Shown piece by piece: positions 23,751 through 40,524 of a DNA stretch of 64,000 bases. The position numbers and the translations under genes were made by a program. The DNA is from a virus (Duplodnaviria; Caudoviricetes): positions 1,779 to 65,778 of the IMG/VR virus record IMGVR_UViG_3300009702_001278; one strand, written 5' to 3'. Position 1 is the first letter of the stretch. The number at the start of each line of letters is the position of its first letter. Below the pieces are notes generated by a model. It made no database searches and was not told the DNA's origin. It was given only the letters and a program-made list of their open reading frames with translations.

Positions 23751-23781
23751 AAAAAGGGTGCGGGCTTTGTGCCCACACCCT
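23751..23781 (-). terminator. Rho-independent terminator after ssb
   Basis: AGGGTGTGGGC-ACAAA-GCCCGCACCCT hairpin followed by a T run. Confidence 0.8.
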
Positions 23782-23796
23782 CTCCGCAAGTTGTCA

Positions 23797-24465
23797 CTAC
23801 CAGTTTATGGGATCATCGCCAGCGTCGGCAAGATCGCCAATTGCACCCGAATCTGCAACAGCCTGTTGCGGAGTCGTAGCCGGTGCAGGCCCGTTCGTTG
23901 ATGCCGTGCCAAAAGCTCGGTCGATCAACTGGTTAAGCGGCGTGGCCTTGAAGACATCTTCTAAGGTGTAAAGATCACCGTTTGCCTTAATGGCTGCACG
24001 CTCTTCGTCAGAGATCGGAGCAGGACCAAGGAAGGTGGTCGTGTATTCACGATTCAAACCCTTGCCTGTTGCCTCGATAGTCCAGTTTCCACCATTCTGG
24101 CCGCCTGGATGAGACTTCGTTCTTTTTGCCCAAGAGCCAAAGTACTTAAAGATCGAGCGTCCACCGTCAAGTACCTTCACCACCTGATCTTCACGATCAA
24201 TTACGTTCATCGCATAACGATGAGAAGGCTTGAACTCCTTACCAGTATGCTCGGTCAGTATTTCGGCAGCCTTCGTCCCGTCATCCAGATCAACAACGAC
24301 TGATCGCTGCGTTTCCTGAATAAAGAACTTATAAAACTCAACTGCCTTACCTATGGGGCGAACTTCCACGGTCTTGCCGTCCTCAAAACGGATGAAACGG
24401 GTCTTACCCTTACCACTTCCACTACTTTTTCCACCAACACTGTTCCAATCAACTTCTGTAGCCAT
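23797..24465 (-). CDS. single-stranded DNA-binding protein (gp32-like)
   Basis: RYAMNVIDR...VKVL, GKGLNREY, low-complexity acidic tail ending DDPINW; adjacent to recA. Confidence 0.7.
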   Translation of the reverse strand: MATEVDWNSVGGKSSGSGKGKTRFIRFEDGKTVEVRPIGKAVEFYKFFIQETQRSVVVDLDDGTKAAEILTEHTGKEFKPSHRYAMNVIDREDQVVKVLDGGRSIFKYFGSWAKRTKSHPGGQNGGNWTIEATGKGLNREYTTTFLGPAPISDEERAAIKANGDLYTLEDVFKATPLNQLIDRAFGTASTNGPAPATTPQQAVADSGAIGDLADAGDDPINW

Positions 24466-24491: not shown

Positions 24492-25724
24492 CTACCCTAA
24501 CATTGACAAATCGTCAGCCTCAACTCCAAAGGTCGTAGTCACTACGCCCTGGCCTTGTGGTGCTGAAATTCTTTCTCCTGGCCCGATACTATCAAAACCA
24601 TCGAGATCATTTACTTGCTGTGCTTTGATTTTCTCCTCTCCTGCTTGAGTTGTCCCCAGAGGCTCCTTTACTTCTAATTGCAGGCAACTCAACTGTCGGC
24701 TCAAAGATTCAGAAGCAGCCTTCAAAATATTGTCGGCGTGCTTTCCTGATTCCATAACACCTTTTAATTCCCCAATATAGTCTGCAATATCGGACATATG
24801 TTCCATTGTTAAACCATGTCTGCGGTGCGCCCCTTTCAAATCGTGATCTTTCCATAACTTAGACTCTAGTAATTCTCCCCACCGCTCCCAAATATAGAAT
24901 TGCGGGATTACCTTCAGTATGATCGTGCTCAGCCTAGATCGCCATTGGTATGACGCATCTAGCTTGTAACGAATCACGTCAGGTGAAATTACTGTTCTCT
25001 CTCCGAGGAAATGATCCGTATTCACCTCGGCTATTTCATTACGAATATCCGGCATGTCCAAGATTGGATACTTTGTAAGAACCATCTTAAGCATATGAAC
25101 TTTGTAACGATAGAACTCCTTGAAGCTCACGCTGCCATCATAGAGAGTAAACTGCGGATACTTCTGGAGACATTCCTGATAGAAATGTAACTCATCGCCT
25201 CGTAACCCTAACGGGTTTTCTTTAGTAACCTTGGGAGTAAAAACTTCATCCTCGACTACATCCTCGACTACATCCTCGACTACATCCTCAACTACATCGA
25301 GAGGATCAACACCAGAAGAGGAGTCTTCCCCTTCTTCTGGTGTTGCCTCCGACTTTACGCCGTCATCCTCAACCTCAAACTCTGCCATATCCCTTGATAC
25401 TTCAGTCTCATATTGCTTGCCACCCTCAATTAGCATTTCGTCTGGCTTAGTGTCAGACTCTTGAGGAGGTGATGTGGAGTTGCTTTCCGCTTCTTCGAGA
25501 GCAGCAGCAATTATTTCACGATGCTCATCCCCAGTCTCAGATTCCGGTTTCTTAGTCACTTCTTCCTCTACCATCATATCCTTGACGTCTTCACAACGTT
25601 CATCAAAAGACCGAGAAGACATATCGTCCGCTGCTGTGGTCCCGTAATCAGACGTATCAGACGTATCAGATTTCTCCTCCACCTCAATCACGTCAAATAG
25701 CGATGCCATTGCCTCAGCTTTCAT
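24492..25724 (-). CDS. hypothetical protein with acidic N-terminus
   Basis: 410-aa ORF with DVVE and SDT tandem repeats. Confidence 0.65.
   Translation of the reverse strand: MKAEAMASLFDVIEVEEKSDTSDTSDYGTTAADDMSSRSFDERCEDVKDMMVEEEVTKKPESETGDEHREIIAAALEEAESNSTSPPQESDTKPDEMLIEGGKQYETEVSRDMAEFEVEDDGVKSEATPEEGEDSSSGVDPLDVVEDVVEDVVEDVVEDEVFTPKVTKENPLGLRGDELHFYQECLQKYPQFTLYDGSVSFKEFYRYKVHMLKMVLTKYPILDMPDIRNEIAEVNTDHFLGERTVISPDVIRYKLDASYQWRSRLSTIILKVIPQFYIWERWGELLESKLWKDHDLKGAHRRHGLTMEHMSDIADYIGELKGVMESGKHADNILKAASESLSRQLSCLQLEVKEPLGTTQAGEEKIKAQQVNDLDGFDSIGPGERISAPQGQGVVTTTFGVEADDLSMLG
25247..25298. repeat. 12-bp in-frame tandem repeat, about 4 copies (DVVE)
   Basis: catcctcgacta units visible in the sequence. 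Confidence 0.75.
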
Positions 25725-25735
25725 TATATTTCCCT

Positions 25736-26086
25736 TTAGAGAGTATCCAAGTTATCAAGATTATCCAAACCTGCGCCTGGCTCTGGTCGAGCGTCTTTGT
25801 CAAGTTGGTCAACGAAATATGCCTTCTTGTGTGAAAGCTTGAGTTCATCCAGTACTCGGTCATGAATCTGCTGGAATTCTCTCGTAAGCACCGTCTGCCA
25901 GTTCATCACCTTCTTCTCACGCTCAGAAAGCGATTGCCAGTCAATTTCTTCGTCAATATGGTAATGAATTACGAGCGATTGGTACTTTTCAGTCGAGAGA
26001 GTTCGTTGTAACCCCAGTTGCAAGCGACCTTTACGACGTGGCTTGTCTGACGTGTTAGTATCAAGCTGTATCTTACCATTGGTCAT
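25736..26086 (-). CDS. hypothetical protein
   Basis: 116-aa ORF with AGGAG RBS. Confidence 0.65.
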   Translation of the reverse strand: MTNGKIQLDTNTSDKPRRKGRLQLGLQRTLSTEKYQSLVIHYHIDEEIDWQSLSEREKKVMNWQTVLTREFQQIHDRVLDELKLSHKKAYFVDQLDKDARPEPGAGLDNLDNLDTL

Positions 26087-26186: not shown

Positions 26187-29100
26187 TTACCTAGCGAACA
26201 AATCACCCTTTTGACGCCCAAGTCCTCTCTTCCGGTCGTTTTTAATGGTGTCAAAGTCTCGGAGTAATTGAGATTTTGGCTTATCCTTACCAAATAGATT
26301 CGCATCACATAAGGCTTCAACCACTTTGCTGTTGACAGCAGAGCCAACTTTGTTTGCGAATGCAAACATCAAGTCGTTGCCTTTATATGGTTGGTTTTCG
26401 ATAATCTCGTGAGCAGCCTTATCACCAACGTCCCTAATAATGAGTGGGCGCAGCAATTCTCGCTCTCCGATCTTAACGTAATGCATCTTAGATAGATTCA
26501 AACTGGGAGGGGCAATCTTATAGTTATGCTTCCGTAAGTCATCCTCATACTTACTAACCAAATCAAAGTCTCTGCGCTGTGCCTCAACCGACAACCTCGA
26601 AGCCATAAACTCAAGCATATAGTGAGCCTTGAGGTAAGCCGTCTTCCAGCACTCGTAAGCATAACTGGTGGCATGAGAATTTCGATTGACAATACCAGAA
26701 GATAGGCAATATAAGTGGGCTTCACTATCAACTTCAAGGTCATAACATTGATTCAGTCCAGCATACTTGATACTTGTGACCCGTACTTTTTGCCAATTAG
26801 CTTGACTACTCCTCTTTCCGGGCATAACATCACCATGTTTAACAGTCGTTGAAACTCCTGGTGTTTGAATCTTTTGTGATGAGATAACCACACATCGTAA
26901 GACATTCGAACAACTAGATACCCCCATTGACAAAGCTGATCGTTTACCTCTATGTCTTTTTGTTGATTTTGTAACAACTTCGTGTTGTTTATGTGATTTA
27001 TAAAATGGTATTGCCCATCGTATTCCACAACTACCTTGCGATCCCTGTCTATAAAATCCACTTGTCTTCTTTGTGAAATGGAAGTAAATTTCTTGCTTTT
27101 GATGATTTGTGAATGCTTGAAACCAAGAGGGCATAAAACATCCTTTAGATACAACTCGGGGGCTGAGTGCCATTGATTTTGCCTCATTGCGGGCAAAACG
27201 CATTTGATTATAAAATCCTCTGGATTTTCTACCCGCCATTTCCTGAGTTGTTCTGTCCTCGCCTTCAATATTTCTGGTCGAGCAGATGTTTCGATAGCGG
27301 TTTCCACCCTGTTTTTCTGGAACAGAGATTTGTGAGTCACGTTGAGTTTCTTCATCAAACAGGAACGCCGATGAATTTCTTCTTCGTTGGATAAGATCGC
27401 CGCAGATACCGAGGATGACACTGTTTTCTTGTATTCCGCGAGCCTTTCTGGGTCTTTTTTGATTTCCTCCCAGAATTTTCTTGATATTTTTCCGTTCGAT
27501 TCCGAATAATGATGAGACTTTATTACCTCCCATTGTTGACACTGCTTCTTGTGAGAATAAAGCTCTCGCTTCGTGAATTTTTGCTCGCAACCTGGACAAA
27601 CAAAAGTCTTTTTGCTCAGTTTGTATTCTTCGCATTTTCTCTTGTGTTCTATAAACACTCTTCGGTTCGGCAACACCTCCTGACATCCCAGGCAAATCCA
27701 ATCTTTCCTTTTTGGCATTTTTTATCTCCCAATTTTGCATAACAAACAAATTGCGTTCTACAATTTCACGAAGAGATCGTATGCCTTGATTAGTCATAAA
27801 CTTATGATCTAAAGTACATACATGTTTACTACCGTCACTAAATTCGACTTCCCACGTTGGTATCACACCATGATCATATACATCTACAATCTCAATTGGA
27901 TCACCTTCAGGTGAATAAACATCAGGCAAAGATTCTCCGCTTCTCTTTCTATTATACAATTCTTGGATAGAAATGTCATTTTCCGAGGTTATGATTTTTT
28001 CCGAAAAGGACAGTGACTTGTTGAAAGCATAACCACCAAACTTCTCCATATCATCCCAAATCTTCTTGGCAACCCCGGAGGGAACGCCCGTCTCGATGGC
28101 GGCTCGTAGGAACTGATCCTTGAAGTTGTTGATGATCTTGATTTTCTTCTTAGCACAACCTTTCATAAACATGTAACCATCAGAAGCGGTCAAGTCTGCC
28201 AGTGCCATGAATGCCTGCATGACCTGTTCTTGATAGGCCATAATACCATAGGTTCTCTGGGTGATCTTCCGCAGCAACGGGTGGGGGAATTCAACCTTAT
28301 GTTTTCCTGTCTTCCTATCGGACAACTCAGGGATATAATCCTTGGGGCCTGGCCTGTACATCGCAATAGCAACAATCAAGTCATCAAATGAATCAATGCC
28401 GATTTGCTGGAAGGTCTGCTTCATTCCTGTTTTTTCAGCTTGGAAACACCCGTCAGTATCACCCTTAGCTAACAAGGTGAGCGTTGAATTATCTTTCAAA
28501 GGTAACCGAGACAGGTCAACATCAACACCGTGGTTTTCCTTCACAAGTTTGACTGCCATCGCCAACGCAGTCTTCGTAGACAGACCTAGCACATCAAACT
28601 TAATAAGACCAAGCGACTCGACATCTTCCTTCGAGAATTGCGTTGCTACTGTCTTCTTGGACCAGTCATCATCTGTTGCACCATGTGTAATATGGAGTGG
28701 GCAAATTTGCTCAAGCGGAATTGGAGAAATAATCACTCCTGCTGCATGGCAATTATGGACAAGAATATCCTGAGCGATGAAGTTGGGCTCGTTTTGATAG
28801 AAGTCATCACGATCTTTGAATGTAATGTCCCAAACTTCCTGTTCTTCTAGAGGTTCTATACTTTCAATGGTATGACATTTTATTACTGAGTAGACCTTAT
28901 ATTTTTGAGGATTTTTTCTGATTTCCTCAAATTCTACACAACCTTGATCTGTAAATATCAGGTGCTCATCCGTAACCTTGATCCAAGTCCCCTTAGATAA
29001 CCGCATTTTGTAGCACTTTTTAATACCCGTGCAATGAGGATGGAAATCTGACGTATACAGTTCTTTTCCTACTTTATCTATGTATGCAACTTTGCAAGTA

Positions 29101-29858
29101 TTATCAAGCTGATCTATCCGCACCCAGCCTATATCTGTTTTGATAAGAGTATCTTTAGCCAGACACCCATATGCAGAGATAGAGCCTTCTAGCCGTCTTG
29201 CGACCCGATATACTTCCGGGTACTGCTTCATATACCGGGCAAAATCTGAGAAGGTTTCACAAGCATCGTCAACGCAGTTAATTAGAGAGCCATCCTTCTT
29301 CTTAAATGCTGACTGCGACTTAGGTAATGTGTTGAGAATCTCATTCTGTAGTGCATAGTTTCTGCTTTTGTCTGGCTTGGAGCCGGAGTAGTCTATGGAG
29401 TTCTCTGGGTCAAGAATTTCTACAGCCTTGCGAACTGCTGCTTTTGTCTTCAGAGTTAGCGTTGTACCAACGTTGCCAACTCTGTCTTCACCGTACTTCT
29501 GCTGCAAGTACTCAATAATTTCATGGCGTCGAGCATAGTCGAAGTCCATGTCGATATCAGGGAAACCTGCCCGACCATAGGTACGTCGCTTCTCAACCGC
29601 AAACTCACCATTGGGTCGGGCTGTAGTAATCCCTAAAAAGTATGCTACTAGAGAGTTGAGGATATTTTTTCTGCCCGCTTGGATATCACCCTCAGTCAAC
29701 CTCTTGTATATCTCCAACAGATTGTCTACAATGCCCAGGCGTTCCATCTGCTGGAGTTCATCAAACAACCTTTCTTTGTGTTTGTCAAAATCAGGCTTGT
29801 CAGTGATAAACGATATTACCTTTCTTCCTTTTTCACTTAGTTTCATCATCAACCTCAT
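26187..29858 (-). CDS. dnaE: DNA polymerase III alpha, catalytic part, with two inteins
   Basis: FPDIDMDF, G|CHAAGVII, LIKFDVLGL, YRPGP, YQEQVM, YAFNK|SHATSY. Confidence 0.92.
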   Translation of the reverse strand: MRLMMKLSEKGRKVISFITDKPDFDKHKERLFDELQQMERLGIVDNLLEIYKRLTEGDIQAGRKNILNSLVAYFLGITTARPNGEFAVEKRRTYGRAGFPDIDMDFDYARRHEIIEYLQQKYGEDRVGNVGTTLTLKTKAAVRKAVEILDPENSIDYSGSKPDKSRNYALQNEILNTLPKSQSAFKKKDGSLINCVDDACETFSDFARYMKQYPEVYRVARRLEGSISAYGCLAKDTLIKTDIGWVRIDQLDNTCKVAYIDKVGKELYTSDFHPHCTGIKKCYKMRLSKGTWIKVTDEHLIFTDQGCVEFEEIRKNPQKYKVYSVIKCHTIESIEPLEEQEVWDITFKDRDDFYQNEPNFIAQDILVHNCHAAGVIISPIPLEQICPLHITHGATDDDWSKKTVATQFSKEDVESLGLIKFDVLGLSTKTALAMAVKLVKENHGVDVDLSRLPLKDNSTLTLLAKGDTDGCFQAEKTGMKQTFQQIGIDSFDDLIVAIAMYRPGPKDYIPELSDRKTGKHKVEFPHPLLRKITQRTYGIMAYQEQVMQAFMALADLTASDGYMFMKGCAKKKIKIINNFKDQFLRAAIETGVPSGVAKKIWDDMEKFGGYAFNKSLSFSEKIITSENDISIQELYNRKRSGESLPDVYSPEGDPIEIVDVYDHGVIPTWEVEFSDGSKHVCTLDHKFMTNQGIRSLREIVERNLFVMQNWEIKNAKKERLDLPGMSGGVAEPKSVYRTQEKMRRIQTEQKDFCLSRLRAKIHEARALFSQEAVSTMGGNKVSSLFGIERKNIKKILGGNQKRPRKARGIQENSVILGICGDLIQRRRNSSAFLFDEETQRDSQISVPEKQGGNRYRNICSTRNIEGEDRTTQEMAGRKSRGFYNQMRFARNEAKSMALSPRVVSKGCFMPSWFQAFTNHQKQEIYFHFTKKTSGFYRQGSQGSCGIRWAIPFYKSHKQHEVVTKSTKRHRGKRSALSMGVSSCSNVLRCVVISSQKIQTPGVSTTVKHGDVMPGKRSSQANWQKVRVTSIKYAGLNQCYDLEVDSEAHLYCLSSGIVNRNSHATSYAYECWKTAYLKAHYMLEFMASRLSVEAQRRDFDLVSKYEDDLRKHNYKIAPPSLNLSKMHYVKIGERELLRPLIIRDVGDKAAHEIIENQPYKGNDLMFAFANKVGSAVNSKVVEALCDANLFGKDKPKSQLLRDFDTIKNDRKRGLGRQKGDLFAR
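26679..28016 (-). mobile_element. DnaE intein 2 (446 aa) with nested out-of-frame endonuclease gene
   Basis: Starts SLSFSEKI after FNK, block B CTLDHKF, ends CYDLEV...GIVNRN before SHA. Confidence 0.85.
26753..27718 (-). CDS. zinc-finger plus DUF559/Vsr-like endonuclease nested in intein 2
   Basis: Own GGGAG RBS; CLGC..H..C and CPGC..H..C; VDFID...VVEYDGQYH...KD...GYLVVRM. Confidence 0.82.
   Translation of the reverse strand: MPKRKDWICLGCQEVLPNRRVFIEHKRKCEEYKLSKKTFVCPGCEQKFTKRELYSHKKQCQQWEVIKSHHYSESNGKISRKFWEEIKKDPERLAEYKKTVSSSVSAAILSNEEEIHRRSCLMKKLNVTHKSLFQKNRVETAIETSARPEILKARTEQLRKWRVENPEDFIIKCVLPAMRQNQWHSAPELYLKDVLCPLGFKHSQIIKSKKFTSISQRRQVDFIDRDRKVVVEYDGQYHFINHINNTKLLQNQQKDIEVNDQLCQWGYLVVRMSYDVWLSHHKRFKHQEFQRLLNMVMLCPERGVVKLIGKKYGSQVSSMLD
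28752..29165 (-). mobile_element. DnaE mini-intein 1 (138 aa)
   Basis: CLAKDTLI...VTDEHLIF...VWDI...ILVHN followed by Cys. Confidence 0.9.
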
Positions 29859-30903
29859 TCAAATATAACAACTCATTCAGTATTAGTTCAGCACATTCAT
29901 ATGTGGCTACCCGGTATGATATATTGTGGTCGTCTAAGAACGATCTGATCCGTGCCTGAATTTGTAAGGATTCATCCTTAGTCTGATACCTAATGTTATT
30001 CTCGGAATACTCCTGAATTTCAAGTAAGATAATATCATCATATGTCGGTATATCAAACAACACTTCTTTGTAAATCTTCGCCAACTTTAAGGCACTTTTT
30101 TCACAGAAAGGTGTATCATACAACATCTGAGCATATATGAAATTCAAAAAAGTGGGGCAATCTGAAACCACAAAGCCAGCGGTAGATGCATCCTGCTCTC
30201 TTTTGCGTTGTCCATACAGCATAAGCATCTAATCCGCAAATTCTGGATTGCGTCGATACTTCTGAATAAACGAAGTAGCATACTCTGTAACGTGGAAAGC
30301 ATTTCCGTTAAACCTGGTGTTCAAAGCATGTGACAACCATTTGGCAGTTTCAGTCTTTCCACTGCTCGGAGCACCGCAAAATGCTATCTTACGATTAAAG
30401 TAATCCCAAGTGCACATCGGAGACTCTATCAGATTCGTTCCGAAAAGCGTGCGATCAATATCACGAGGAATAGGTATTGAGATCGGTTCACATGCTTCGA
30501 TCTCTAGGAAAGCGACACGCATCGGACGATATACAAAATCCACAGTGATATTATAGGGACGGTCGTAGGGACGTTCAGACGGCACTGTGATACAGAACCT
30601 ATCTTTGCTAACCACTAAATTAGCATTCTGAATCAATATAGTAGCAGCTTCCTCGCTCAAGTCTGCCTCATCTTCAAATCGATGACCATCCCTCTTATCT
30701 CCAGTCTTGCAGGTCAATCGCCATTCATCATCTATGGGAACACCTGCTTCATCAGGTGAGCATTTATGTCGGATACGACACCCTTTGTCATAGTAGTAAT
30801 CTTCTAGATGAAAGTTGTCATCACCTAATTCAATTTTCAACCCCTTGAGAAATTGATGTATCCCCTCATGAGTAAACATAAACGAACGTTCGTGTTCGAT
30901 CAT
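29833..30903 (-). CDS. CYTH-like plus NadR-type (AAA_28) kinase fusion, with in-frame TAG at 30229-30231
   Basis: N-terminal EHERSF; GAPSSGKT, TEYAT, then D*MLMLYGQRKRE...VVSD continues in the same frame. Confidence 0.7.
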
Positions 30904-31916
30904 TTGAATATTCCTCCAAATGCTTGCTTAATACGGTTCTTCGCTGTGCGGTAATACTTCTCTTCCTTCTCTGCTGCATAAGAGTTTGCACCTAGTTTTG
31001 CTGCCACAATACTAGCCATGCAAGTGCCACCAAATGGCTCCCACAGCACCATGCCGCTCTTAATGAACGGCAATAATAATCGTGAGACAACCTCATGTGG
31101 TTTAGCATTGGGATGCCCATTATCTCTTTTAGAACATCGTATTACATTCGTCATACCAATTGGCAATGTAAAATAATACCAATCTCTCATCTCAATACCG
31201 CTTGCCTTAGCTCCCTCCATCGCCTCCATAATTCTCGAAAAGTAGGGAGCACCTCTGGGAGCACCATGTTTGTTAGCATATTCAACCAGCTTCTCTAGCA
31301 TAGGTTGAGGCGGCGGATACCATAAGTGATCCGCAGTCAGATACTTACGAGTCGCTGCATTCTTAACATTACAAGCCTCGTTTGCTCTACTGAATGGCAA
31401 TTCTGTCCTTGCCCATTCGGATCGCAGGTATTCTTGAGCTTCTTGCATAGTGCCTATTGCATAATAAGGTGGTCTACAATAGAAGGCAATCACCTCAGTC
31501 ACAATAGGGAAGGTTCGCTGCGTTTCCGAATTCACTCTGCCTGCTACGTGTGATATACTCTTGTCCCAGACGATCAACTGCTTGTATACCCAGCCATTCT
31601 CTTCTAATACCGGGTGGACAGATGCCCAAGAAATTTCACGACCGCAAAATAACAAAACAGTACGTGACGTGTGCTTCCAATTCTCTATATGAAGACGATA
31701 CCACTCGGCCAACTCCTTGCCATTGACGAAATCCTCGGCAAAAAACTTCAACCCATAGGGGCCATCACAGAATATCACGGATGGCTCAGGCCACTCATTG
31801 TAGCAGTCTTCTGCCTTGCCTAGTGTTAAATTAACCTTACCCATTGACAGTTCCGAATATATCCTTACGCTTCTTCTGATGCTTCTTGCGGTTATTGGGT
31901 GGGATAAACAAATCAC
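30900..31916 (-). CDS. DNA methyltransferase (N6A/N4C, beta class)
   Basis: DGPY, HPNAKP, EPFGGT; likely start ATG 31844. Confidence 0.85.
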   Translation of the reverse strand: MICLSHPITARSIRRSVRIYSELSMGKVNLTLGKAEDCYNEWPEPSVIFCDGPYGLKFFAEDFVNGKELAEWYRLHIENWKHTSRTVLLFCGREISWASVHPVLEENGWVYKQLIVWDKSISHVAGRVNSETQRTFPIVTEVIAFYCRPPYYAIGTMQEAQEYLRSEWARTELPFSRANEACNVKNAATRKYLTADHLWYPPPQPMLEKLVEYANKHGAPRGAPYFSRIMEAMEGAKASGIEMRDWYYFTLPIGMTNVIRCSKRDNGHPNAKPHEVVSRLLLPFIKSGMVLWEPFGGTCMASIVAAKLGANSYAAEKEEKYYRTAKNRIKQAFGGIFK

Positions 31917-32640
31917 CTCTTAGCCGCTTGCGTGATAACTCAACTGCATCAGGATCATTATCAATACCCACATAAGAAACTCCATAAGCTCTGGCTGCCA
32001 TCAGTGATGTACCACTGCCGCAAAATGGGTCTAGTATCAAACCACCCGGATCAACAGAGCATTTAACCATCCTGTTGAAAACTTCGATAGGCTTCTGCCA
32101 TTTATGTCCTAGTTGCCTATCTGTTGGATTACCCGCATTAACTGCTGTCACTTCCCAGACATCTCCAGCTATAGCCCCCAACTTGTTGGGTATCCACCCT
32201 TGTTTCTTATCGTTGTTGCAAGGATATTTTAGCCTTTCGGGGTGCAAATATGGGACTCTAGAAGGATCAATCCGGTGAACAAAGTCGCCTTTAGCAAAAT
32301 ACAGAATAGGGTCGTACTGAATAGCGAACCGCTTTCGCTCTCGCTTGATGGAATTCTTGTAATGCCACACGATAGTATTAAGCCACCGGAATCCAACTCG
32401 CTCTGCCTCATTCCAAAACTCTCGTAAGGTAGCCTGACCCACACACATCATCAGAGCACTATCTGGTTTCAATAACCGATACGCCTCGCCAAGAAAGTCA
32501 GTTGCCACATAATCATCATCATCCCCAGTCACTCCATAAGGAGGGTCTGTCAGAATCGCATCAAACGATTCGTCGGAGAAGGACGGTAGTACATCTGCCC
32601 AGTTGCCTAAGATGACCTCATTAGTCTGCATTGAGTCCAC
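31837..32640 (-). CDS. DNA methyltransferase (N6A/N4C, beta class)
   Basis: TDPPY, HKWQKP, LDPFCGSGT. Confidence 0.9.
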   Translation of the reverse strand: MDSMQTNEVILGNWADVLPSFSDESFDAILTDPPYGVTGDDDDYVATDFLGEAYRLLKPDSALMMCVGQATLREFWNEAERVGFRWLNTIVWHYKNSIKRERKRFAIQYDPILYFAKGDFVHRIDPSRVPYLHPERLKYPCNNDKKQGWIPNKLGAIAGDVWEVTAVNAGNPTDRQLGHKWQKPIEVFNRMVKCSVDPGGLILDPFCGSGTSLMAARAYGVSYVGIDNDPDAVELSRKRLRGDLFIPPNNRKKHQKKRKDIFGTVNG

Positions 32641-32644
32641 CAGA

Positions 32645-34029
32645 TTATTGATACCTATCCGACATTACTGCCACAGGATTAGATTTATCCAGTTCCCCAT
32701 CACTTTTATTCTCTGATTTATGTGTACTATTATATCCGCCGATGCCAAAATCATTCTCAGAGATAAAGTAGGCATCATCAAAACCAAGGAACCGCTCCCA
32801 CAGCAAGTCCTGTTCTATCGGATCAACACCCTCGGTAATACCCAAGCACTTCAAAAGTAGCGAGCCATATCCAGACCCACGAATGCCTGCTGCAATCTTG
32901 TTTTCTTTGGCAAACCGCATCACATCTTCAACAATCAGAAAATAAGTTGCGAAATCAAACCGTTTAGTATCCCATATGAGTGTGACATCATCTAGCTCTC
33001 TGGATAAACGATCACGATGAGGCTTCGACTGATCTAGGCCCTCTCTCTTCAATCCCGCCCAGGCCAACTTCTTCAGATAGTTCAGAGGGTCGAATTCGCC
33101 TTCTGGTAAGTCGAATATCGGCAGCCGCATCGAGCCAAAGACAATGTCAGAGTAGTCGCATTTGTCAGCGATCTCAAGAGTATTGTACATTGACTGACGA
33201 CAATGCTTGAAGAACCTCAGCATCTCTTCTTCAGACTTCAGATAGAATTCATTAAACGGAAACTTCATTCGCTTCGGATCACGAATGGATCGCTTACTGC
33301 TCATACACATCAAATATTCGTGAAACTCTGCATCATCTTTATTGATATAGTGGCAGTCGTTGGTCACAATAGTCTTGATACCAAGCTCTTTGCTAATCCG
33401 TTGGATGCCGGGAAGTACCTTGGCTTCTAAATCTATTCCGTGGAACATCATCTCCAGATAATAGTCATCACCAAAGATGTCTTGGAATATGCCCGCAGCC
33501 TGTTTTGCTGCATCGTATCTATCGCAAGAGAGATGCCAGTTAACCACGTTGCTCAGGCAAGCCGACGTTACAATCAGACCTTCCTTGTGCTGTTCAAGCA
33601 ATTCTAGGTCGATACGTGGATCATAATACGTGCCATCCAGGGATGACTTCTGAGCCAAAGCACAAAGATTTTGATATCCCTTATAGTTCTTCGCTATCAC
33701 GTTGAGATGACGATTACCACGCCTGCCATCAGGTTGACCCCCCTTGGAGTGGCAGTGGTGATCTCTGCATAGATATGCCTCCACACCCAAGATTGGTTTA
33801 ATGCCTTGAGTACGGCACTCTTTCAGGAACACAATAATACCTGCTATTGTGCCATGATCTGTCAGTCCTAATGCGGGCATTCCCATCTCTTTGGCTTTCT
33901 TCACCATACCTTTGACAGATGAGAAGCCATCGAATTTACTGTACTGAACACTCCAGTAGATACTCCCCTACCCAAAAGGCAGGGGAGCAGCTACTGTGAG
34001 TGATTATGGATTTGTATAAAATCGCTCAT
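32645..34029 (-). CDS. dnaE: DNA polymerase III alpha N-terminal (PHP) part, interrupted by a 50-nt insert
   Basis: Removing 33944-33993 gives MSDFIQIHNHSQYSKFDG...LTDHG...GVEAY...TNDCHY; AAGGAG RBS at 34041-34046. Confidence 0.88.
33944..33993 (-). other. 50-nt hairpin insert; candidate translational bypass element
   Basis: CAG|TAG...GGAG-TGTT-CAG|TAC with a 23-bp stem spanning 33949-34002. Confidence 0.65.
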
Positions 34030-34095
34030 AACCACTAGGTCTCCTTATGGGGTTTTAGTTTGCGTTTGCGTTTACGAGTTTCCTACAAAATTTTC

Positions 34096-34530
34096 TCATT
34101 TGATACAGTGCCAATCTTCTGCTGTCACCATAACTTGCACCCCTGCTCGCTCTGCTTCTTTGGCTAAGGCTAACAACTTTGTGACAACTTCCTTACTCAT
34201 CCAACCATCGCACGGAAAGAAATCCGAGTTATACCTCGTAAGTGCTATTTGCTTCGACGCCCAATTTTCGATATATGTTACGGTGGACTCAAATGTATAG
34301 GGCTTGTACTTATCAGGCCATCGTCGCATCAACAGTTTGAACCACCATCTGTTATTCAGATTGGTTTGCTCATCTTCGATGTACGCTCGCCGTTTCTTCT
34401 CGCAAATCGACTCAATGCGATCTATAGTTCGAGTGCATACTTCAATCACCCGAGCGGGCTGCATAGCAATAAAAGAAACGTGTTTGGTTTCTGAGTTGTT
34501 TTGCGACAGACATATAGGAAACATTCTCAA
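34096..34530 (-). CDS. hypothetical protein
   Basis: 144-aa ORF downstream of a TTGTATAAT motif. Confidence 0.55.
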   Translation of the reverse strand: MRMFPICLSQNNSETKHVSFIAMQPARVIEVCTRTIDRIESICEKKRRAYIEDEQTNLNNRWWFKLLMRRWPDKYKPYTFESTVTYIENWASKQIALTRYNSDFFPCDGWMSKEVVTKLLALAKEAERAGVQVMVTAEDWHCIK

Positions 34531-34557: not shown

Positions 34558-34911
34558 TCAATCTTCATCCAGATCACCCGCTTCTAGCAGATTCCATCGA
34601 TTTATGTTGGGTTTCAGAACAGCTAGTATCTGGTCAACGGTTATCATCTCTAAACTCAGAATGTCAACATACCTGGCTGTGCGCTTCAGGGTCGAAGATG
34701 AAGTGAAAGTGACATAGCTAAACTTCTCATCAGCGATGTTTTTGACCCGCACTTTTTTGTAACAGAGTATGCCATTCGTGTCCTGAATCTGCATAGAACA
34801 GGTTAGTTCGTGATTGTAGATGACTTCAAGAATTGCCTTGATATCCTCCAGTTCGGTGATGTCAGAATCAGCGACCTTCGATATGGTCTTCTTATAGCAC
34901 TTATATTTCAT
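34558..34911 (-). CDS. hypothetical protein
   Basis: 117-aa coupled ORF. Confidence 0.6.
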   Translation of the reverse strand: MKYKCYKKTISKVADSDITELEDIKAILEVIYNHELTCSMQIQDTNGILCYKKVRVKNIADEKFSYVTFTSSSTLKRTARYVDILSLEMITVDQILAVLKPNINRWNLLEAGDLDED

Positions 34912-39048: not shown

Positions 39049-39366
39049 TTATGACTGATCTTGTTCCGTTTCTTCTTCAGTATCCAACTTCTGCACGAAG
39101 TAATCCATTAAAGCTTCTGCCCAAGGCAATGCCTGCTCTTCGGCGAGTCTCTCAAAGGCTTCTACTGCTTCATCAAATGTATCAAACAAATGAGTGCGTG
39201 ATATTTCAGAGAACCTCTGATAAATCTTGGGTGAAGCAACATATAGAGAAAATTCGTCTGCGTTTTTCACCTTCGGATGATTAGGTTTATGAAAGATGGT
39301 AGCCAACACTATGTCGTTGTGTCTTAACTCCCATTTACGGTCTTTGATTTTTGTCCATTCTGTCAT
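39049..39366 (-). CDS. hypothetical protein
   Basis: 105-aa ORF, GAGGGG RBS, ATGA coupling. Confidence 0.6.
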   Translation of the reverse strand: MTEWTKIKDRKWELRHNDIVLATIFHKPNHPKVKNADEFSLYVASPKIYQRFSEISRTHLFDTFDEAVEAFERLAEEQALPWAEALMDYFVQKLDTEEETEQDQS

Positions 39367-40524
39367 TTCTTCCCCTCAAATATATCTATGTGGGTCGTTT
39401 CTTTCAACCTCTTTTGAGCGATTTCAAAAGATTCTGGGTTATTTTCATACCCTATAAATCGGCGGCGCAGCTTCTTGCACGCTTTTCCTGTCGTCCCCGA
39501 CCCCATAAAAGGATCGAGCACATTAACAGGCTCATCCAATCGGGCGGGCCTTGGACTTACCAACTTGATAAGCCGCTCCATCAGCCTAATCGGCTTAACG
39601 GTGTCATGAGTATTATACGAACGTTTCTCATGTTTGCTGGGTTTTGGCACCATAAAAAAGCGGTCATAATCAGCCATAAGAGGATCAAGCCACACTAAAT
39701 TGGCAGGCCACCTACCACCCGGATGGACATTTACCTGTTTCTTGCCACCTTCATTTGCCGAAAAATACTGCACATCACCGTGTTCTTTACCAGCAAAATG
39801 TAAAAATGTCTCTAGCGACCGCTTATCCTCATCAGACTCATAGGGTATTCTACACGCATCAATGTTGATCGCCCCAACATGCCACTTCAGGATGTTTTCA
39901 ACGTAGCTGCCCTCTAAAGGCTTCTGAGCCAAGATGATCGGTTCCCACGCAGTCTTTAATTGAGTTCCCCATCCGTCCCACTTCTTGGCTTCTTCAGAAG
40001 CAGGAGCGGTAATATCCCACGATTCCGCCGATTCCGCCGATTCGTGTGAACTCAAAGTATCGGCATGATATACATTCGACTTGACTGTTGGGTTGTTCTT
40101 CAGTGTTGGATGTACCCTGCGAGCTATGACTTCACGATCAGCACCAAAATGCTTGTCGATTGCCCGATCAATCGAATACGAATGCGGGAACCCGGTAGCA
40201 TATCCCCAACACAAGCAGTCCTTGATCTCAAACCCGGCATCTTCCAACTGTACACCCAAACGATGATACAGTCTGGTGTGGCCGAATGCTACAAGAAATC
40301 CGCCAGGGCGCAGCGCCTCAAAGCATGCTTTCCAAATCTCAATCGGCGGCAACACCTTATCCCAATCCAACCCCATGAAATTCATGCCATAACTAATAAG
40401 GTGGGTCAGTGACGATTGCATGAATTGAATTCTTGTCCAAGTGTTGAGAAATCAATTCAGCGGAATCACCGAGGCCCACCTCGCGCATTTTCCCCTTAAA
40501 GTACTTTGCCATATCCAATTCCAT
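39363..40524 (-). CDS. DNA methyltransferase (beta class) interrupted by a 7-nt insert after DPPY
   Basis: Upstream frame gives ...GDS...SIHAIVTDPPY then TAG; downstream frame gives YGMNFMG...HDTVKP...LDPFMGSGTT. Confidence 0.85.

What the first reader, a model, noticed from the sequence alone, without database searches (positions are those of the whole stretch)
33944..34002. Candidate programmed ribosomal bypass (50-nt hop) in the dnaE PHP motif
Seen, mRNA sense: CAU AAU CAC UCA CAG | UAG CUGCUCCCCUGCC UUUUG GGUAGGGGAGUA U CUACUG GAGUG UU CAG | UAC AGU AAA UUC GAU GGC. Skipping exactly 50 nt restores HNHSQYSKFDG, matching the DnaE HxHSxYSxLDG motif. The take-off CAG (33994-33996) is followed by UAG and matched by a landing CAG (33944-33946). 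A 23-bp stem pairs the insert with the upstream codons and the stop; its two G-U pairs work only on the mRNA strand. GGAG lies 4 nt before the landing codon. Known: T4 gene 60 uses matched codons, UAG, a stem-loop, a mini-SD and a 50-nt gap; Magnusiomyces mitochondrial byps are similar. Inference: a new bypass element in a replicative polymerase gene. Caveats: only 12-14 codons precede take-off, so a gene-60-type nascent peptide signal is unlikely; the core palindrome also resembles IS200/IS605-family end hairpins and is flanked by a CAGTA repeat, so it may be an inactivating mini-element.
Basis: partly seen in the sequence, partly recalled or inferred. Interest (0 to 1): 0.92.

Follow-up and report, generated by a model that had tools for sequence, protein, structure and literature searches.

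The report
Hairpin coding gap in phage dnaE
The DNA polymerase gene of this uncultured giant phage is broken after 14 codons by a 50-base RNA hairpin that 14 related phages carry in diverged forms at the same spot, and the way it is conserved suggests that ribosomes jump over it, a very rare and here still untested way of reading a gene.

Summary
On the minus strand, a 14-codon mini-ORF (SD 34041-34046, GTG 34035) ends in CAG-TAG. Skipping 33993-33944 (50 nt, ending in a second CAG) restores HNHSQ|YSKFDG, the motif that uninterrupted homologues encode.

In the close clade, 15 of 22 DNA loci carry a gap at this site, 36-59 nt long and in all three frame classes. None was seen in 71 resolved distant phage loci, 32 distant metagenome loci or 77 cellular dnaE genes.

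- All 15 gaps are sense-strand RNA hairpins starting at the take-off codon, with compensatory changes.
- 12 of 15 have a stop (TAG, TAA or TGA) directly after take-off.
- 14 of 15 have an identical or synonymous landing codon.
- The mini-ORF keeps its SD, start codon and amino acids despite synonymous change.
- No conserved restart codon exists.

Best reading (0.65): a translational bypass, analogous to but not homologous with T4 gene 60. A zinc-finger nuclease gene, or its remnant, lies just upstream in some loci. Nothing has been tested at the bench and no RNA data exist.

My paper searches found no report of this. Earlier notes of this scan describe similar dnaE gaps on other DNA.

The parts
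34041..34046 (-). Shine-Dalgarno AAGGAG of the mini-ORF
   Evidence: Sequence read. All 15 gap-bearing loci have an SD-like motif before a start codon.
33994..34035 (-). Mini-ORF of 14 codons (GTG start; ATG at 34029) encoding the first PHP motif, ...DFIQIHNHSQ
   Evidence: The residues D, F, H, H and Q are invariant in 15 of 15 gap-bearing loci while their codons vary synonymously.
33994..33996 (-). Proposed take-off codon CAG (Gln), paired with CUG at the base of the hairpin
33991..33993 (-). Stop codon TAG directly after the take-off codon, inside the 5' arm of the stem
   Evidence: 12 of 15 loci have a stop at this position (TAG 4, TAA 3, TGA 5).
33944..33993 (-). 50-nt coding gap (stop, hairpin, spacer and landing codon)
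   Evidence: Skipping it restores the junction that uninterrupted homologues encode.
33951..34000 (-). RNA hairpin of about 22 bp with a 3-nt loop and 3 G-U pairs
   Evidence: Covariation was measured on 12 class A copies.
33951..33954 (-). SD-like GGAG, 4 nt 5' of the landing codon
   Evidence: By my reading of the spacers, a GGAG, GAGG, AGGA or AAGG core sits within about 2-6 nt of the landing codon in 7 of 15 loci (5 class A, 2 class B); L010 has only GAGA there.
33944..33946 (-). Proposed landing codon CAG
   Evidence: Landing and take-off codons are identical in 11 of 15 loci, synonymous in 3 of 15 and unmatched in 1 of 15.
32645..33943 (-). Main ORF of the dnaE N-terminal gene (PHP domain from profile position 8, then the first ~100 residues of the pol III alpha domain)
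34047..34086 (-). Remnant of the 3' end of a zinc-finger/PD-(D/E)xK-like nuclease gene. The gene is full-length at this position in L051, L010, L030, L045 and L014.
   Evidence: The DNA alignment with L051 starts to match here. Homologues were found. The remnant is too short for tblastn, so this part is an inference.
26187..29858 (-). dnaE C-terminal gene (rest of the pol III alpha domain, finger domain, intein, HHH). Given as context: it is the partner of the gapped gene.

Best explanation
The element is a programmed translational bypass cassette in the N-terminal gene of a split phage dnaE.

Proposed course of events:
1. Ribosomes start at the SD and GTG and translate 14 codons that encode the first PHP metal-binding motif.
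2. They stall with Gln-tRNA on CAG in the P site and UAG in the A site, at the foot of a very stable hairpin.
3. The peptidyl-tRNA lets go of its codon.
4. The 5' arm, which contains the take-off and stop codons, re-pairs with the 3' arm. The hairpin is looped out and the short spacer is brought into the decoding centre.
5. The peptidyl-tRNA re-pairs with the cognate CAG 50 nt downstream, possibly positioned by the GGAG just upstream.
6. Translation resumes at TAC and one polypeptide reads ...HNHSQ-YSKFDG...

What is shown:
- the anatomy;
- its conservation in 15 loci;
- RNA-level covariation;
- selection on the mini-ORF;
- the absence of any other decoding that fits all loci.

What is inferred:
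- the hop itself, its efficiency and the loop-out geometry;
- a possible role as protection of the site against a neighbouring homing-type nuclease, as in T4 mobA/gene 60.
For: 1. Uninterrupted homologues encode exactly the junction that the skip restores. This stretch aligns with PHP motif I of Taq pol III alpha.

2. 15 of 22 close-clade DNA loci have a gap at this site. Twelve lie after the Gln codon and three lie one codon upstream, after Thr. Lengths are 36, 37, 37, 47, 47, 48, 48, 50, 51, 51, 51, 52, 53, 53 and 59 nt. Length mod 3 is 0 in 6 loci, 1 in 3 and 2 in 6. Close relatives differ in frame class (48 vs 47; 36 vs 37). Every gap has a stop in the take-off frame. Only a skip restores the protein in all loci.

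3. Take-off and landing codons are identical in 11 of 15 loci (CAG, CAA or ACT) and synonymous CAG/CAA in 3 of 15.

4. A stop follows take-off directly in 12 of 15 loci. All three stop codons are used, and the 3' arm changes in compensation.

5. The hairpin starts at nt -2 to +1 of the take-off codon in 15 of 15 loci, with dG from -22 to -44 kcal/mol. The sense strand folds more stably than the antisense strand in 15 of 15, and 35 of 297 predicted pairs are G-U. On the 12 class A copies, 89.6% of cells are paired against 40-54% when partners are slid. Eight of 15 pairs show changes on both sides, and 0 of 500 shuffles reach the observed values on four of the five measures, 1 of 500 on the fifth (further pair types).

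6. The mini-ORF has an SD and a start codon in 15 of 15 loci. D, F, H, H and Q are invariant with synonymous codon variation. Pairwise differing codons are 415 synonymous against 194 nonsynonymous.

7. An in-frame start codon between the last stop and the resume codon exists in only 6 of 15 loci, and none has an SD.

8. CAG/CAA triplets inside the 12 class A gaps number 1, against 11.2 expected. Only 1 of 5000 shuffles is as low.

9. Between the window and L051, the gap region is 75-82% identical and the rest of the gene about 65%. The gap has therefore persisted while both ORFs stayed intact.

10. The layout parallels T4 gene 60, read from the T4 record, and the features listed by Manning and Atkins (abstract and passages).
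Against: - There are no bench, RNA or proteomic data. No RNA run holds the stretch.
- L012 has TTG where the landing codon should be.
- 3 of the 13 homologous proteins whose called ORF starts in the landing region have K, not Q, before the Tyr. I could not see their DNA.
- 3 of 15 gaps (L004, L048, L005) have an ordinary sense codon after take-off. I did not show that it is rare.
- Only 12-15 codons precede take-off, so a gene-60-type nascent-peptide signal of about 45 residues is absent. From general knowledge, short peptidyl-tRNAs are prone to drop off once unpaired.
- The stems (16-25 bp) are far larger than the 7-bp T4 take-off stem-loop, so the T4 mechanism cannot simply be transferred.
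- An SD-like core near the landing codon is present in only 7 of 15 loci.
- The 15 loci fall into roughly 6-7 lineages and are not independent. The shuffles ignore relatedness, and two other triplets (CGA, GAT) are as depleted as CAA.
Confidence: 0.65

Rival explanations
1. RNA-level removal. The 50 nt are cut out of the transcript and the ends rejoined, for example by a phage or host nuclease plus an RNA ligase. Alternatively RNA polymerase skips the hairpin by realigning on the CAGTA repeat. Ribosomes would then read a continuous mRNA.
For: This would equally explain the exact restoration of the motif, gaps in all frame classes, selection on the mini-ORF and a conserved sense-strand hairpin. 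Direct repeats of 3-6 nt flank each gap.
Against: - No known intron type fits. There is no Rfam match above chance.
- The element is 36-59 nt with a single hairpin, and the cut points would be asymmetric: one at the stem foot and one 4-7 nt beyond it.
- It does not explain why the codon after take-off is kept as a stop while its sequence changes in 12 of 15 loci.
- It does not explain why the repeated triplet stays cognate to the same tRNA (CAG/CAA) when it changes.
- It does not explain why CAR triplets are depleted inside the gap.
- No RNA data exist either way.
Confidence: 0.12
2. DNA-level switch or defective allele. The hairpin with its flanking direct repeat is a hot spot for precise deletion by replication slippage. 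Gap-bearing genomes would lack functional DnaE-N and would depend on revertants, co-infecting intact phages or the host polymerase.
For: Direct repeats flank a palindrome. Presence and absence are scattered over the protein tree: 35 changes among 102 proteins against a shuffled mean of 39.8 (quick tree). Intact and gapped forms coexist in the clade, 7 against 15 loci.
Against: - The gap has diverged about as much as the gene between the window and L051, with compensatory changes, while both ORFs and the mini-ORF stayed intact. This is not expected of a dead allele.
- Gapped alleles are the majority, 15 of 22 loci.
- The Logan contig of the probable source run shows only the gapped form, although contigs drop rare variants.
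Confidence: 0.1
3. Two products, or an N-terminally truncated enzyme. Translation ends at the stop, and DnaE-N is made separately from a downstream start, lacking or complemented in trans by the 12-15-residue peptide. The hairpin would be a tolerated selfish or regulatory insert.
For: Gene callers start the ORF downstream or inside the gap in 67 of 102 homologues. Met codons at +12 and +21 are common. L010 has an in-frame ATG just before the landing codon.
Against: - No start codon is conserved near the landing site. Only 6 of 15 loci have one and none has an SD. In L030 and L045 the ATG seen in L010 is out of frame.
- A start at +12 or +21 would delete the HxH and the YSKFDG strand of the PHP fold.
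- The mini-ORF keeps exactly the residues of uninterrupted genes. This is hard to explain for a free 12-15-residue peptide.
Confidence: 0.08

Closest known systems
Phage T4 gene 60 translational bypass cassette and its homologues in the MobA homing-endonuclease element (Manning and Atkins, bioRxiv 10.1101/2022.08.31.505936, abstract and passages read; T4 record NC_000866 read)
   Same: - Both have a take-off codon followed by a stop.
- In both, the stem-loop includes the take-off codon and the stop. UUCG or UUUG tetraloops occur in the three class B copies, as in T4.
[quoted passage not shown]
- Both can have an SD-like motif a few nt before landing.
- In both, the gap lies near the 5' end of one half of a split replication-type gene.
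- A nuclease gene, or its remnant, lies just upstream in some loci.
   Different: - The gene differs: dnaE PHP motif rather than topoisomerase.
- No sequence or structure similarity is detectable. Model R1 does not hit the T4 gap at E <= 10.
- Take-off is on Gln or Thr codons rather than Gly.
- The stems are 16-25 bp and fill most of the gap. T4 has a 7-bp stem followed by an AU-rich stretch.
- Only 12-15 codons precede take-off, against 46, so there is no long nascent-peptide signal.
- Gap length is 36-59 nt.
- The neighbouring nuclease is a zinc-finger/PD-(D/E)xK-like protein rather than an HNH MobA, and its link to the gap is not shown.
Magnusiomyces capitatus mitochondrial byps (known to me here only from passages in Manning and Atkins; the original papers were not read)
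   Same: These are short hairpin-forming inserts (27-55 nt by that passage) in essential genes that must be bypassed. They have a mobile-element-like distribution and no requirement for a long upstream peptide is described.
   Different: - Byps occur in a mitochondrion without SD use. They number 81 copies across 12 genes, and the 3' parts are AU-rich.
- Here there is one site in one gene, and no other copy in 64 kb or in 136 kb of related loci.
- The context is bacterial-type translation with SD-like motifs.
Streptomyces phage Hau3 terminase candidate bypass (Antonov et al. 2023, PMC10732093, passages read)
   Same: This is a phage essential gene interrupted by short inserts, for which bypassing is proposed. 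Stem-loops and an SD-like signal are suggested.
   Different: - The Hau3 inserts are 10-nt blocks triggered by a rare UUA codon, with a proposed regulatory role.
- Here the gaps are 36-59-nt hairpins, mostly starting with a stop codon.
REP/PATE-type miniature palindromic elements mobilised by IS200/IS605-family Y1 transposases (features recalled, not taken from a call)
   Same: Both are short imperfect palindromes. GTAG occurs at the 5' side in 4 copies.
   Different: - The element is single-copy and always at one codon of one gene.
- Its orientation is fixed, and G-U pairs work only on the mRNA strand.
- GTAG is replaced by GTAA or GTGA with compensation.
- No Y1 transposase was found in the record (record 14% complete).

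Membership tests
T4 gene 60 / MobA bypass cassette | Lies in the topoisomerase II large-subunit gene as part of the MobA element | tested here: not met
   The host gene is dnaE (PHP and DNA_pol3_alpha). No HNH gene is recognisable next to it.
T4 gene 60 / MobA bypass cassette | Sequence or structure homology to the gene 60 cassette | tested here: not met
   Covariance model R1, built from the dnaE gaps, gives no match over the T4 gap (L060 2803-2852) at E <= 10 with filters off.
T4 gene 60 / MobA bypass cassette | Matched take-off and landing codons | tested here: met
   Identical in 11 of 15 loci, synonymous CAG/CAA in 3 of 15, unmatched in 1 of 15 (L012).
T4 gene 60 / MobA bypass cassette | [quoted passage not shown] | tested here: met
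   A stop is present in 12 of 15 loci (TAG 4, TAA 3, TGA 5). Three have ATT or GTC, whose rarity was not tested.
T4 gene 60 / MobA bypass cassette | [quoted passage not shown] | tested here: met
   The stem starts at nt -2 to +1 of the take-off codon in 15 of 15 loci. Covariation is shown. The stems are much longer than in T4.
T4 gene 60 / MobA bypass cassette | SD-like motif 5-6 nt 5' of the landing codon | tested here: inconclusive
   A GGAG, GAGG, AGGA or AAGG core is present in 7 of 15 loci, at 2-6 nt. The others have purine-rich but non-SD spacers, L010's GAGA among them (read).
T4 gene 60 / MobA bypass cassette | Nascent-peptide signal encoded by about 45 codons before take-off | tested here: not met
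   Only 12-15 codons lie between the SD-linked start and take-off.
T4 gene 60 / MobA bypass cassette | Travels with a homing endonuclease whose site it disrupts | tested here: inconclusive
   A ~270-aa zinc-finger plus endonuclease-I-like ORF lies directly upstream in 4 of 15 gapped loci. Its Pfam hits are below cut-off. Remnants occur in 2 more gapped loci, but the gene is also present in 1 of 7 ungapped loci. Cleavage was not testable.
Programmed translational bypassing (functional class) | Conserved protein encoded only if a non-coding gap is skipped between cognate codons | tested here: met
Programmed translational bypassing (functional class) | The gap is present in mature mRNA and a single polypeptide spans the junction | not testable with these tools
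   No RNA holder was listed. There are no proteomic data.
Mitochondrial byps (Magnusiomyces) | Many copies spread over many genes of one genome | tested here: not met
   There is one copy in the 65.8-kb record and none elsewhere in 136 kb of related loci or in G001. The record is only 14% complete.
IS200/IS605-derived palindromic MITE (REP/PATE) | Multi-copy, inserted at many sites regardless of codon phase, with a cognate Y1 transposase | tested here: not met
   The element is single-copy and always at the same one or two codons. No PF01797 match was found in the record.
Self-splicing or other described RNA family | Match to a curated RNA family | tested here: not met
   An Rfam scan of 33700-34300 gave only two chance-level hits, far below the gathering scores.

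The most novel reading that the evidence does not exclude
This is a mechanistically distinct kind of bypass. An elongating bacterial ribosome, only 12-15 codons from its start and without a long nascent-peptide signal, is shunted across a 16-25-bp hairpin. The re-folding hairpin swallows the take-off and stop codons and delivers a cognate landing codon 4-7 nt beyond its foot. The cassette arose independently of T4 gene 60. It persists in a clade of giant phages as an immunity device that breaks the target site of a neighbouring zinc-finger homing nuclease in the most conserved stretch of dnaE.
Probability: 0.3. Interest if true: 0.95.

Novelty: new variant of a known kind. Interest (0 to 1): 0.86.

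Why it matters
By the passages I read, long-range programmed bypassing is known from T4 gene 60 and its homologues in topoisomerase genes, and from one yeast mitochondrion. One further phage candidate has been proposed.

This would be an independent family in a replicative polymerase gene.
- It offers 15 diverged natural variants at the DNA level, and probably dozens more among homologues with truncated N-termini.
- Together these form a ready-made mutational series of stems, stops, landing codons, spacers and gap lengths from 36 to 59 nt.
- The series can show which features of bypassing are general and which are peculiar to T4.
- In particular it can test whether a long nascent peptide is needed.

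It also bears on annotation. Gene callers truncate or misplace the start in 67 of 102 homologues.

Finally, it bears on how selfish nucleases and their host genes coexist in giant phages.

Tried and rejected
- **RNA evidence.** The look-up of sequencing runs listed no RNA holder. Only one DNA run was listed, probably the source sample. Its Logan contig is identical, so it gives no information on splicing or on rare gap-free variants.
- **More DNA for the truncated homologues.** As a result, the 54 'truncated' and 13 'gap-start' proteins are classed from protein N-termini only. The odd N-termini of P0009, P0036, P0034, P0057 and P0099 could not be resolved.
- **Searching whole giant-phage records for further copies.** The genome search does not hold the metagenome records. 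Only G000 and G001 could be searched.
- **GenBank phages (INPHARED).** No relative above 41% identity was found.
- **GTDB genomes.** Only cellular dnaE genes were found, and 77 of 77 examined are uninterrupted. Three loci whose match began at residue 17 were dropped.
- **The repeat finder.** The inverted-repeat search missed the hairpin because G-U pairs break exact seeds. I replaced it with an MFE scan.
- **Family searches.** Rfam gave nothing. The record holds no Y1 transposase. Pfam and PHROGs gave nothing for the window's upstream ORFs 34096-34530 and 34558-34911.
- **Tree.** The careful treekit search did not finish in 300 s, so the quick tree was used.
- **Readings rejected.**
  - Read-through or stop-codon recoding: 50 nt is not a multiple of 3, and all three stop codons occur among the gaps.
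  - A single frameshift: the take-off frame and the landing frame do not overlap.
  - An intrinsic terminator: the hairpin is not followed by a U run.
- **Loci not examined.** L042, L047, L056 and L058 were left out because their matches did not start at residue 1. L017 was left out for the same reason and resolved later.
- **Loci left unresolved.** L078 and L082. L077 was resolved.
Full report
**Observation.** On the minus strand the SD AAGGAG (34046-34041) is followed by GTG (34035), GTT and ATG (34029). Codons for SDFIQIHNHSQ follow, the last being CAG at 33996-33994. TAG follows at 33993-33991. The next frame that is open begins only inside the insert. It reads from CAG 33946-33944 and TAC 33943-33941 into a 432-residue product ending at 32645. 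Removing 33993..33944, exactly 50 nt, joins HNHSQ to YSKFDG. The downstream product matches Pfam PHP only from profile position 8 of 164. Uninterrupted homologues match from position 1-2, and their N-terminus aligns with residues 7-21 of Taq pol III alpha. The mini-ORF therefore supplies the first PHP motif. The insert folds into a hairpin of about 22 bp. In a 106-nt context it reaches -44.5 kcal/mol, z = -6.3, with 0 of 200 shuffles as stable. It is the most stable 56-nt fold in the 64-kb window on either strand. A Logan contig of the probable source run is identical.

**Context.** The window is an IMG/VR record of 65.8 kb, classed as a provirus and 14% complete by CheckV. Relatives of the gene sit on contigs of up to 568 kb, so this is most likely a fragment of a giant phage. 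dnaE is split. The N-terminal gene (PHP plus about 100 residues of the pol III alpha domain) is followed by two N6/N4 methyltransferase genes, a broken AAA_28 gene and then a 1223-residue C-terminal gene with an intein. All close homologues of the N-terminal gene are of similar length, so the split is old.

**Relatives.** A protein search gave 1011 homologues at E <= 1e-20. Many begin M.DF[VI][HQ]IHNHSQYSKFDGF, which is exactly the junction predicted here. I classed 102 of the first 104 listed (two dropped because my anchor pattern failed):
- 35 have the intact motif;
- 13 start inside or at the landing region;
- 54 start further downstream.

At the DNA level, the close clade (about 57% identity or more) comprises the window, 1 IMG/VR locus and 20 metagenome loci. 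Of these 22, 15 carry a gap and 7 do not. Outside the clade I found none:
- 32 of 32 distant metagenome loci read straight through (4 loci not examined);
- of 73 IMG/VR loci, 70 read straight through and L077 is intact with an intein further on; L078 and L082 were not resolved;
- 77 of 77 cellular dnaE genes are intact (3 dropped).

**Anatomy of the 15 gaps.**
- Class A (12 loci) lies after the Gln codon.
  - The window has 50 nt, CAG/CAG, TAG.
  - The others have 47-59 nt.
- Class B (3 loci) lies one codon upstream, after Thr. The gaps are 36-37 nt, with ACT/ACT and a UUCG or UUUG loop.
- Length mod 3 is 0 in 6 loci, 1 in 3 and 2 in 6.
- Close relatives differ in frame class: L004 has 48 nt and L048 has 47; L010 has 36 and L030 has 37.
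- Every gap has at least one stop in the take-off frame.
- A stop follows the take-off codon directly in 12 of 15 loci (TAG 4, TAA 3, TGA 5). The change of stop is compensated in the 3' arm, as the window/L051 pair shows.
- Take-off and landing codons are identical in 11 loci, synonymous (CAG/CAA) in 3 and unmatched in 1 (L012, TTG).

**Structure.** Each gap folds into a stem of 16-25 pairs (-22 to -44 kcal/mol). The stem begins at nt -2 to +1 of the take-off codon. In class A it ends 4-7 nt before the landing codon. The sense RNA is more stable than the antisense RNA in 15 of 15 loci, and 35 of 297 predicted pairs are G-U. The structure is therefore an mRNA feature and not a strand-neutral DNA palindrome. 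On a model-based alignment of the 12 class A copies:
- 89.6% of cells pair, against 40-54% when partners are slid by 1-3 columns;
- 8 of 15 pairs show changes on both sides;
- 0 of 500 shuffles reach the observed values on four of the five measures, and 1 of 500 on the fifth (further pair types).

The alignment was fitted to the structure and the sequences are related. These figures therefore overstate independence.

**Coding constraint.** All 15 mini-ORFs have an SD-like motif and a start codon, with 12-15 codons to take-off. Three loci (L002, L048, L045) also have longer alternative in-frame starts. D, F, H, H and Q are invariant although their codons vary. The variable positions use the same residues as in ungapped genes. 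The Ser codon appears as TCA, TCT, TCC, AGT and AGC. Pairwise differing codons are 415 synonymous and 194 nonsynonymous. An in-frame start between the last stop and the resume codon exists in only 6 of 15 loci, never with an SD. The in-frame ATG of L010 is out of frame in its relatives L030 and L045. Between the window and L051, the segment holding the mini-ORF and gap is 75-82% identical and the rest of the gene about 65%. The gap has thus been carried for about as long as the genes have diverged, while both reading frames stayed intact. Inside the 12 class A gaps, CAG/CAA triplets occur once against 11.2 expected, and 1 of 5000 shuffles is as low. CAA and CAG are among the four most depleted of the 64 triplets. 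This fits avoidance of decoy landing sites. However, CGA and GAT are equally depleted, and the shuffles ignore both structure and relatedness.

**Copy number and mobility.** The hairpin core occurs once in the window and once in the record. The covariance model R1 finds copies only at the dnaE site in 136 kb of window plus loci. That search also discovered L017. R1 finds nothing else in G000 or G001. The record holds no Y1 transposase and the region matches no Rfam family. Presence and absence are scattered over the protein tree, with 35 changes against a shuffled mean of 39.8 (quick tree, labels partly inferred). Gain or loss is therefore frequent.

Earlier notes of this scan mention selfish nuclease genes next to similar gaps, so I looked upstream. 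A ~270-residue ORF lies directly before dnaE in L051, L010, L030 and L045 (all gapped) and in L014 (ungapped). It has a MucR/Ros-type zinc finger and an endonuclease-I-like C-terminal part, but its Pfam hits are below cut-off. A 30-residue tail remains in L011. The window aligns with the last ~12 codons of the L051 gene at about 34086-34047, but carries a stop there. The parallel with T4 mobA is suggestive but not established.

**Mechanism.** The only decoding that restores the conserved protein in all 15 loci is a skip from the take-off codon to the codon after the landing codon. Four features point to the ribosome as the agent rather than an RNA- or DNA-processing step:
- retention of a stop as a stop, but not as a sequence;
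- retention of a codon cognate to the same tRNA at the landing site;
- the SD-like motifs in 7 of 15 spacers;
- possibly the lack of decoy triplets.

I therefore favour a bypass (0.65). Ribosomes would stall on CAG-UAG at the foot of the hairpin. The peptidyl-tRNA unpairs. The stem, which includes the take-off and stop codons, re-forms and loops the gap out. The tRNA re-pairs at the landing codon a few nt beyond the stem. All of these steps are inferred.

Against this reading:
- there are no RNA or protein data;
- L012 is unmatched;
- three gap-start proteins have K before the Tyr;
- three gaps lack an adjacent stop;
- the upstream peptide is very short;
- the stems are far larger than the T4 take-off stem-loop.

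The rivals are RNA-level removal (0.12), a DNA-level slippage switch or defective allele (0.10), and separate products or an N-terminally truncated enzyme (0.08).

**Comparison with what is known.** The T4 gene 60 gap was read from the record. It has GGA-TAG, a 7-bp stem with a UUCG loop that includes part of the take-off codon, an AU-rich stretch with GAG, and a landing GGA after 50 nt. Manning and Atkins (bioRxiv 2022; abstract and passages read) report dozens of homologues. All lie in topoisomerase genes within the MobA element. The words polymerase, dnaE and PHP do not occur in their main text. Their supplements were not open to me.

The dnaE cassette works like these but is not a member of that family. 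The gene differs, no similarity is detectable, no long nascent peptide is encoded, and the neighbouring nuclease differs. It also resembles the mitochondrial byps, which I know only from a passage in that preprint. Unlike them it is single-copy.

Four full-text searches returned no paper describing a gap or bypass in dnaE or in giant phages:
- bypassing with phage and DNA polymerase III;
- ribosomal bypass, hopping, gene 60, metagenome and coding gap;
- translational jumping, Magnusiomyces and byps;
- bypass terms with huge, jumbo or mega phage.

I read listings and abstracts only, apart from the two papers named above. Earlier AI notes of this scan describe similar dnaE PHP gaps on other DNA: 42-44-nt hairpins and 7-12-nt forms, with 58 notes in at least 42 genomes. 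I did not check those notes. They are not independent evidence.

**Verdict.** The feature is real and conserved. It is a new variant of programmed translational bypassing by the best current reading, untested at the bench and of high interest.

Noticed in passing
window 26187-33943 (minus strand): dnaE is split into an N-terminal gene (32645-33943) and a 1223-residue C-terminal gene (26187-29858). The C-terminal gene carries an intein. Two N6/N4 DNA methyltransferase genes and a broken AAA_28 gene lie between the halves.
   Followed up: partly
window 40389-40398, within 39363-40524 (minus strand): A methyltransferase gene is interrupted in its DPPY motif by TAT-TAG-T-TAT. Skipping 7 nt between two TAT codons would join DPPY to GMNFMG. 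This may be a second, minimal matched-codon gap in the same genome. Homologues were not examined.
   Followed up: partly
window 29833-30903 (minus strand): An AAA_28 (NadR-like kinase) gene is in two pieces in the same frame, separated by one TAG that is directly followed by ATG. It could be two genes, a read-through or decay.
   Followed up: partly
window 25299-25354 (minus strand): The second most stable hairpin of the window (-32.7 kcal/mol) lies inside an uninterrupted 419-residue acidic ORF (24492-25751). It is read in frame, with no stop.
   Followed up: partly
L051 1080-1898; L010 1112-1915; L030 1090-1914; L045 923-1852; L014 879-1670; remnants in L011 632-721 and window about 34047-34086: A ~270-residue ORF lies directly upstream of dnaE. 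It has a MucR/Ros-type zinc finger, a second Cys cluster and an endonuclease-I-like (D...EVK) C-terminal part, which makes it a candidate free-standing homing nuclease. The Pfam hits are below cut-off.
   Followed up: partly
L017 198-2684: This gapped dnaE N-terminal gene also carries an in-frame intein-like insertion, giving an 828-residue open frame.
   Followed up: no
proteins P0009 and P0036: The N-termini read like the HIHNHSQY stretch in another frame, followed by (S/N)FDG. This suggests a much shorter gap or a frameshift at the same site. The DNA could not be fetched.
   Followed up: no
window 23751-23806 (minus strand): A GC-rich hairpin followed by a U run looks like an intrinsic terminator. 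It lies right after the ORF ending at 23797.
   Followed up: no
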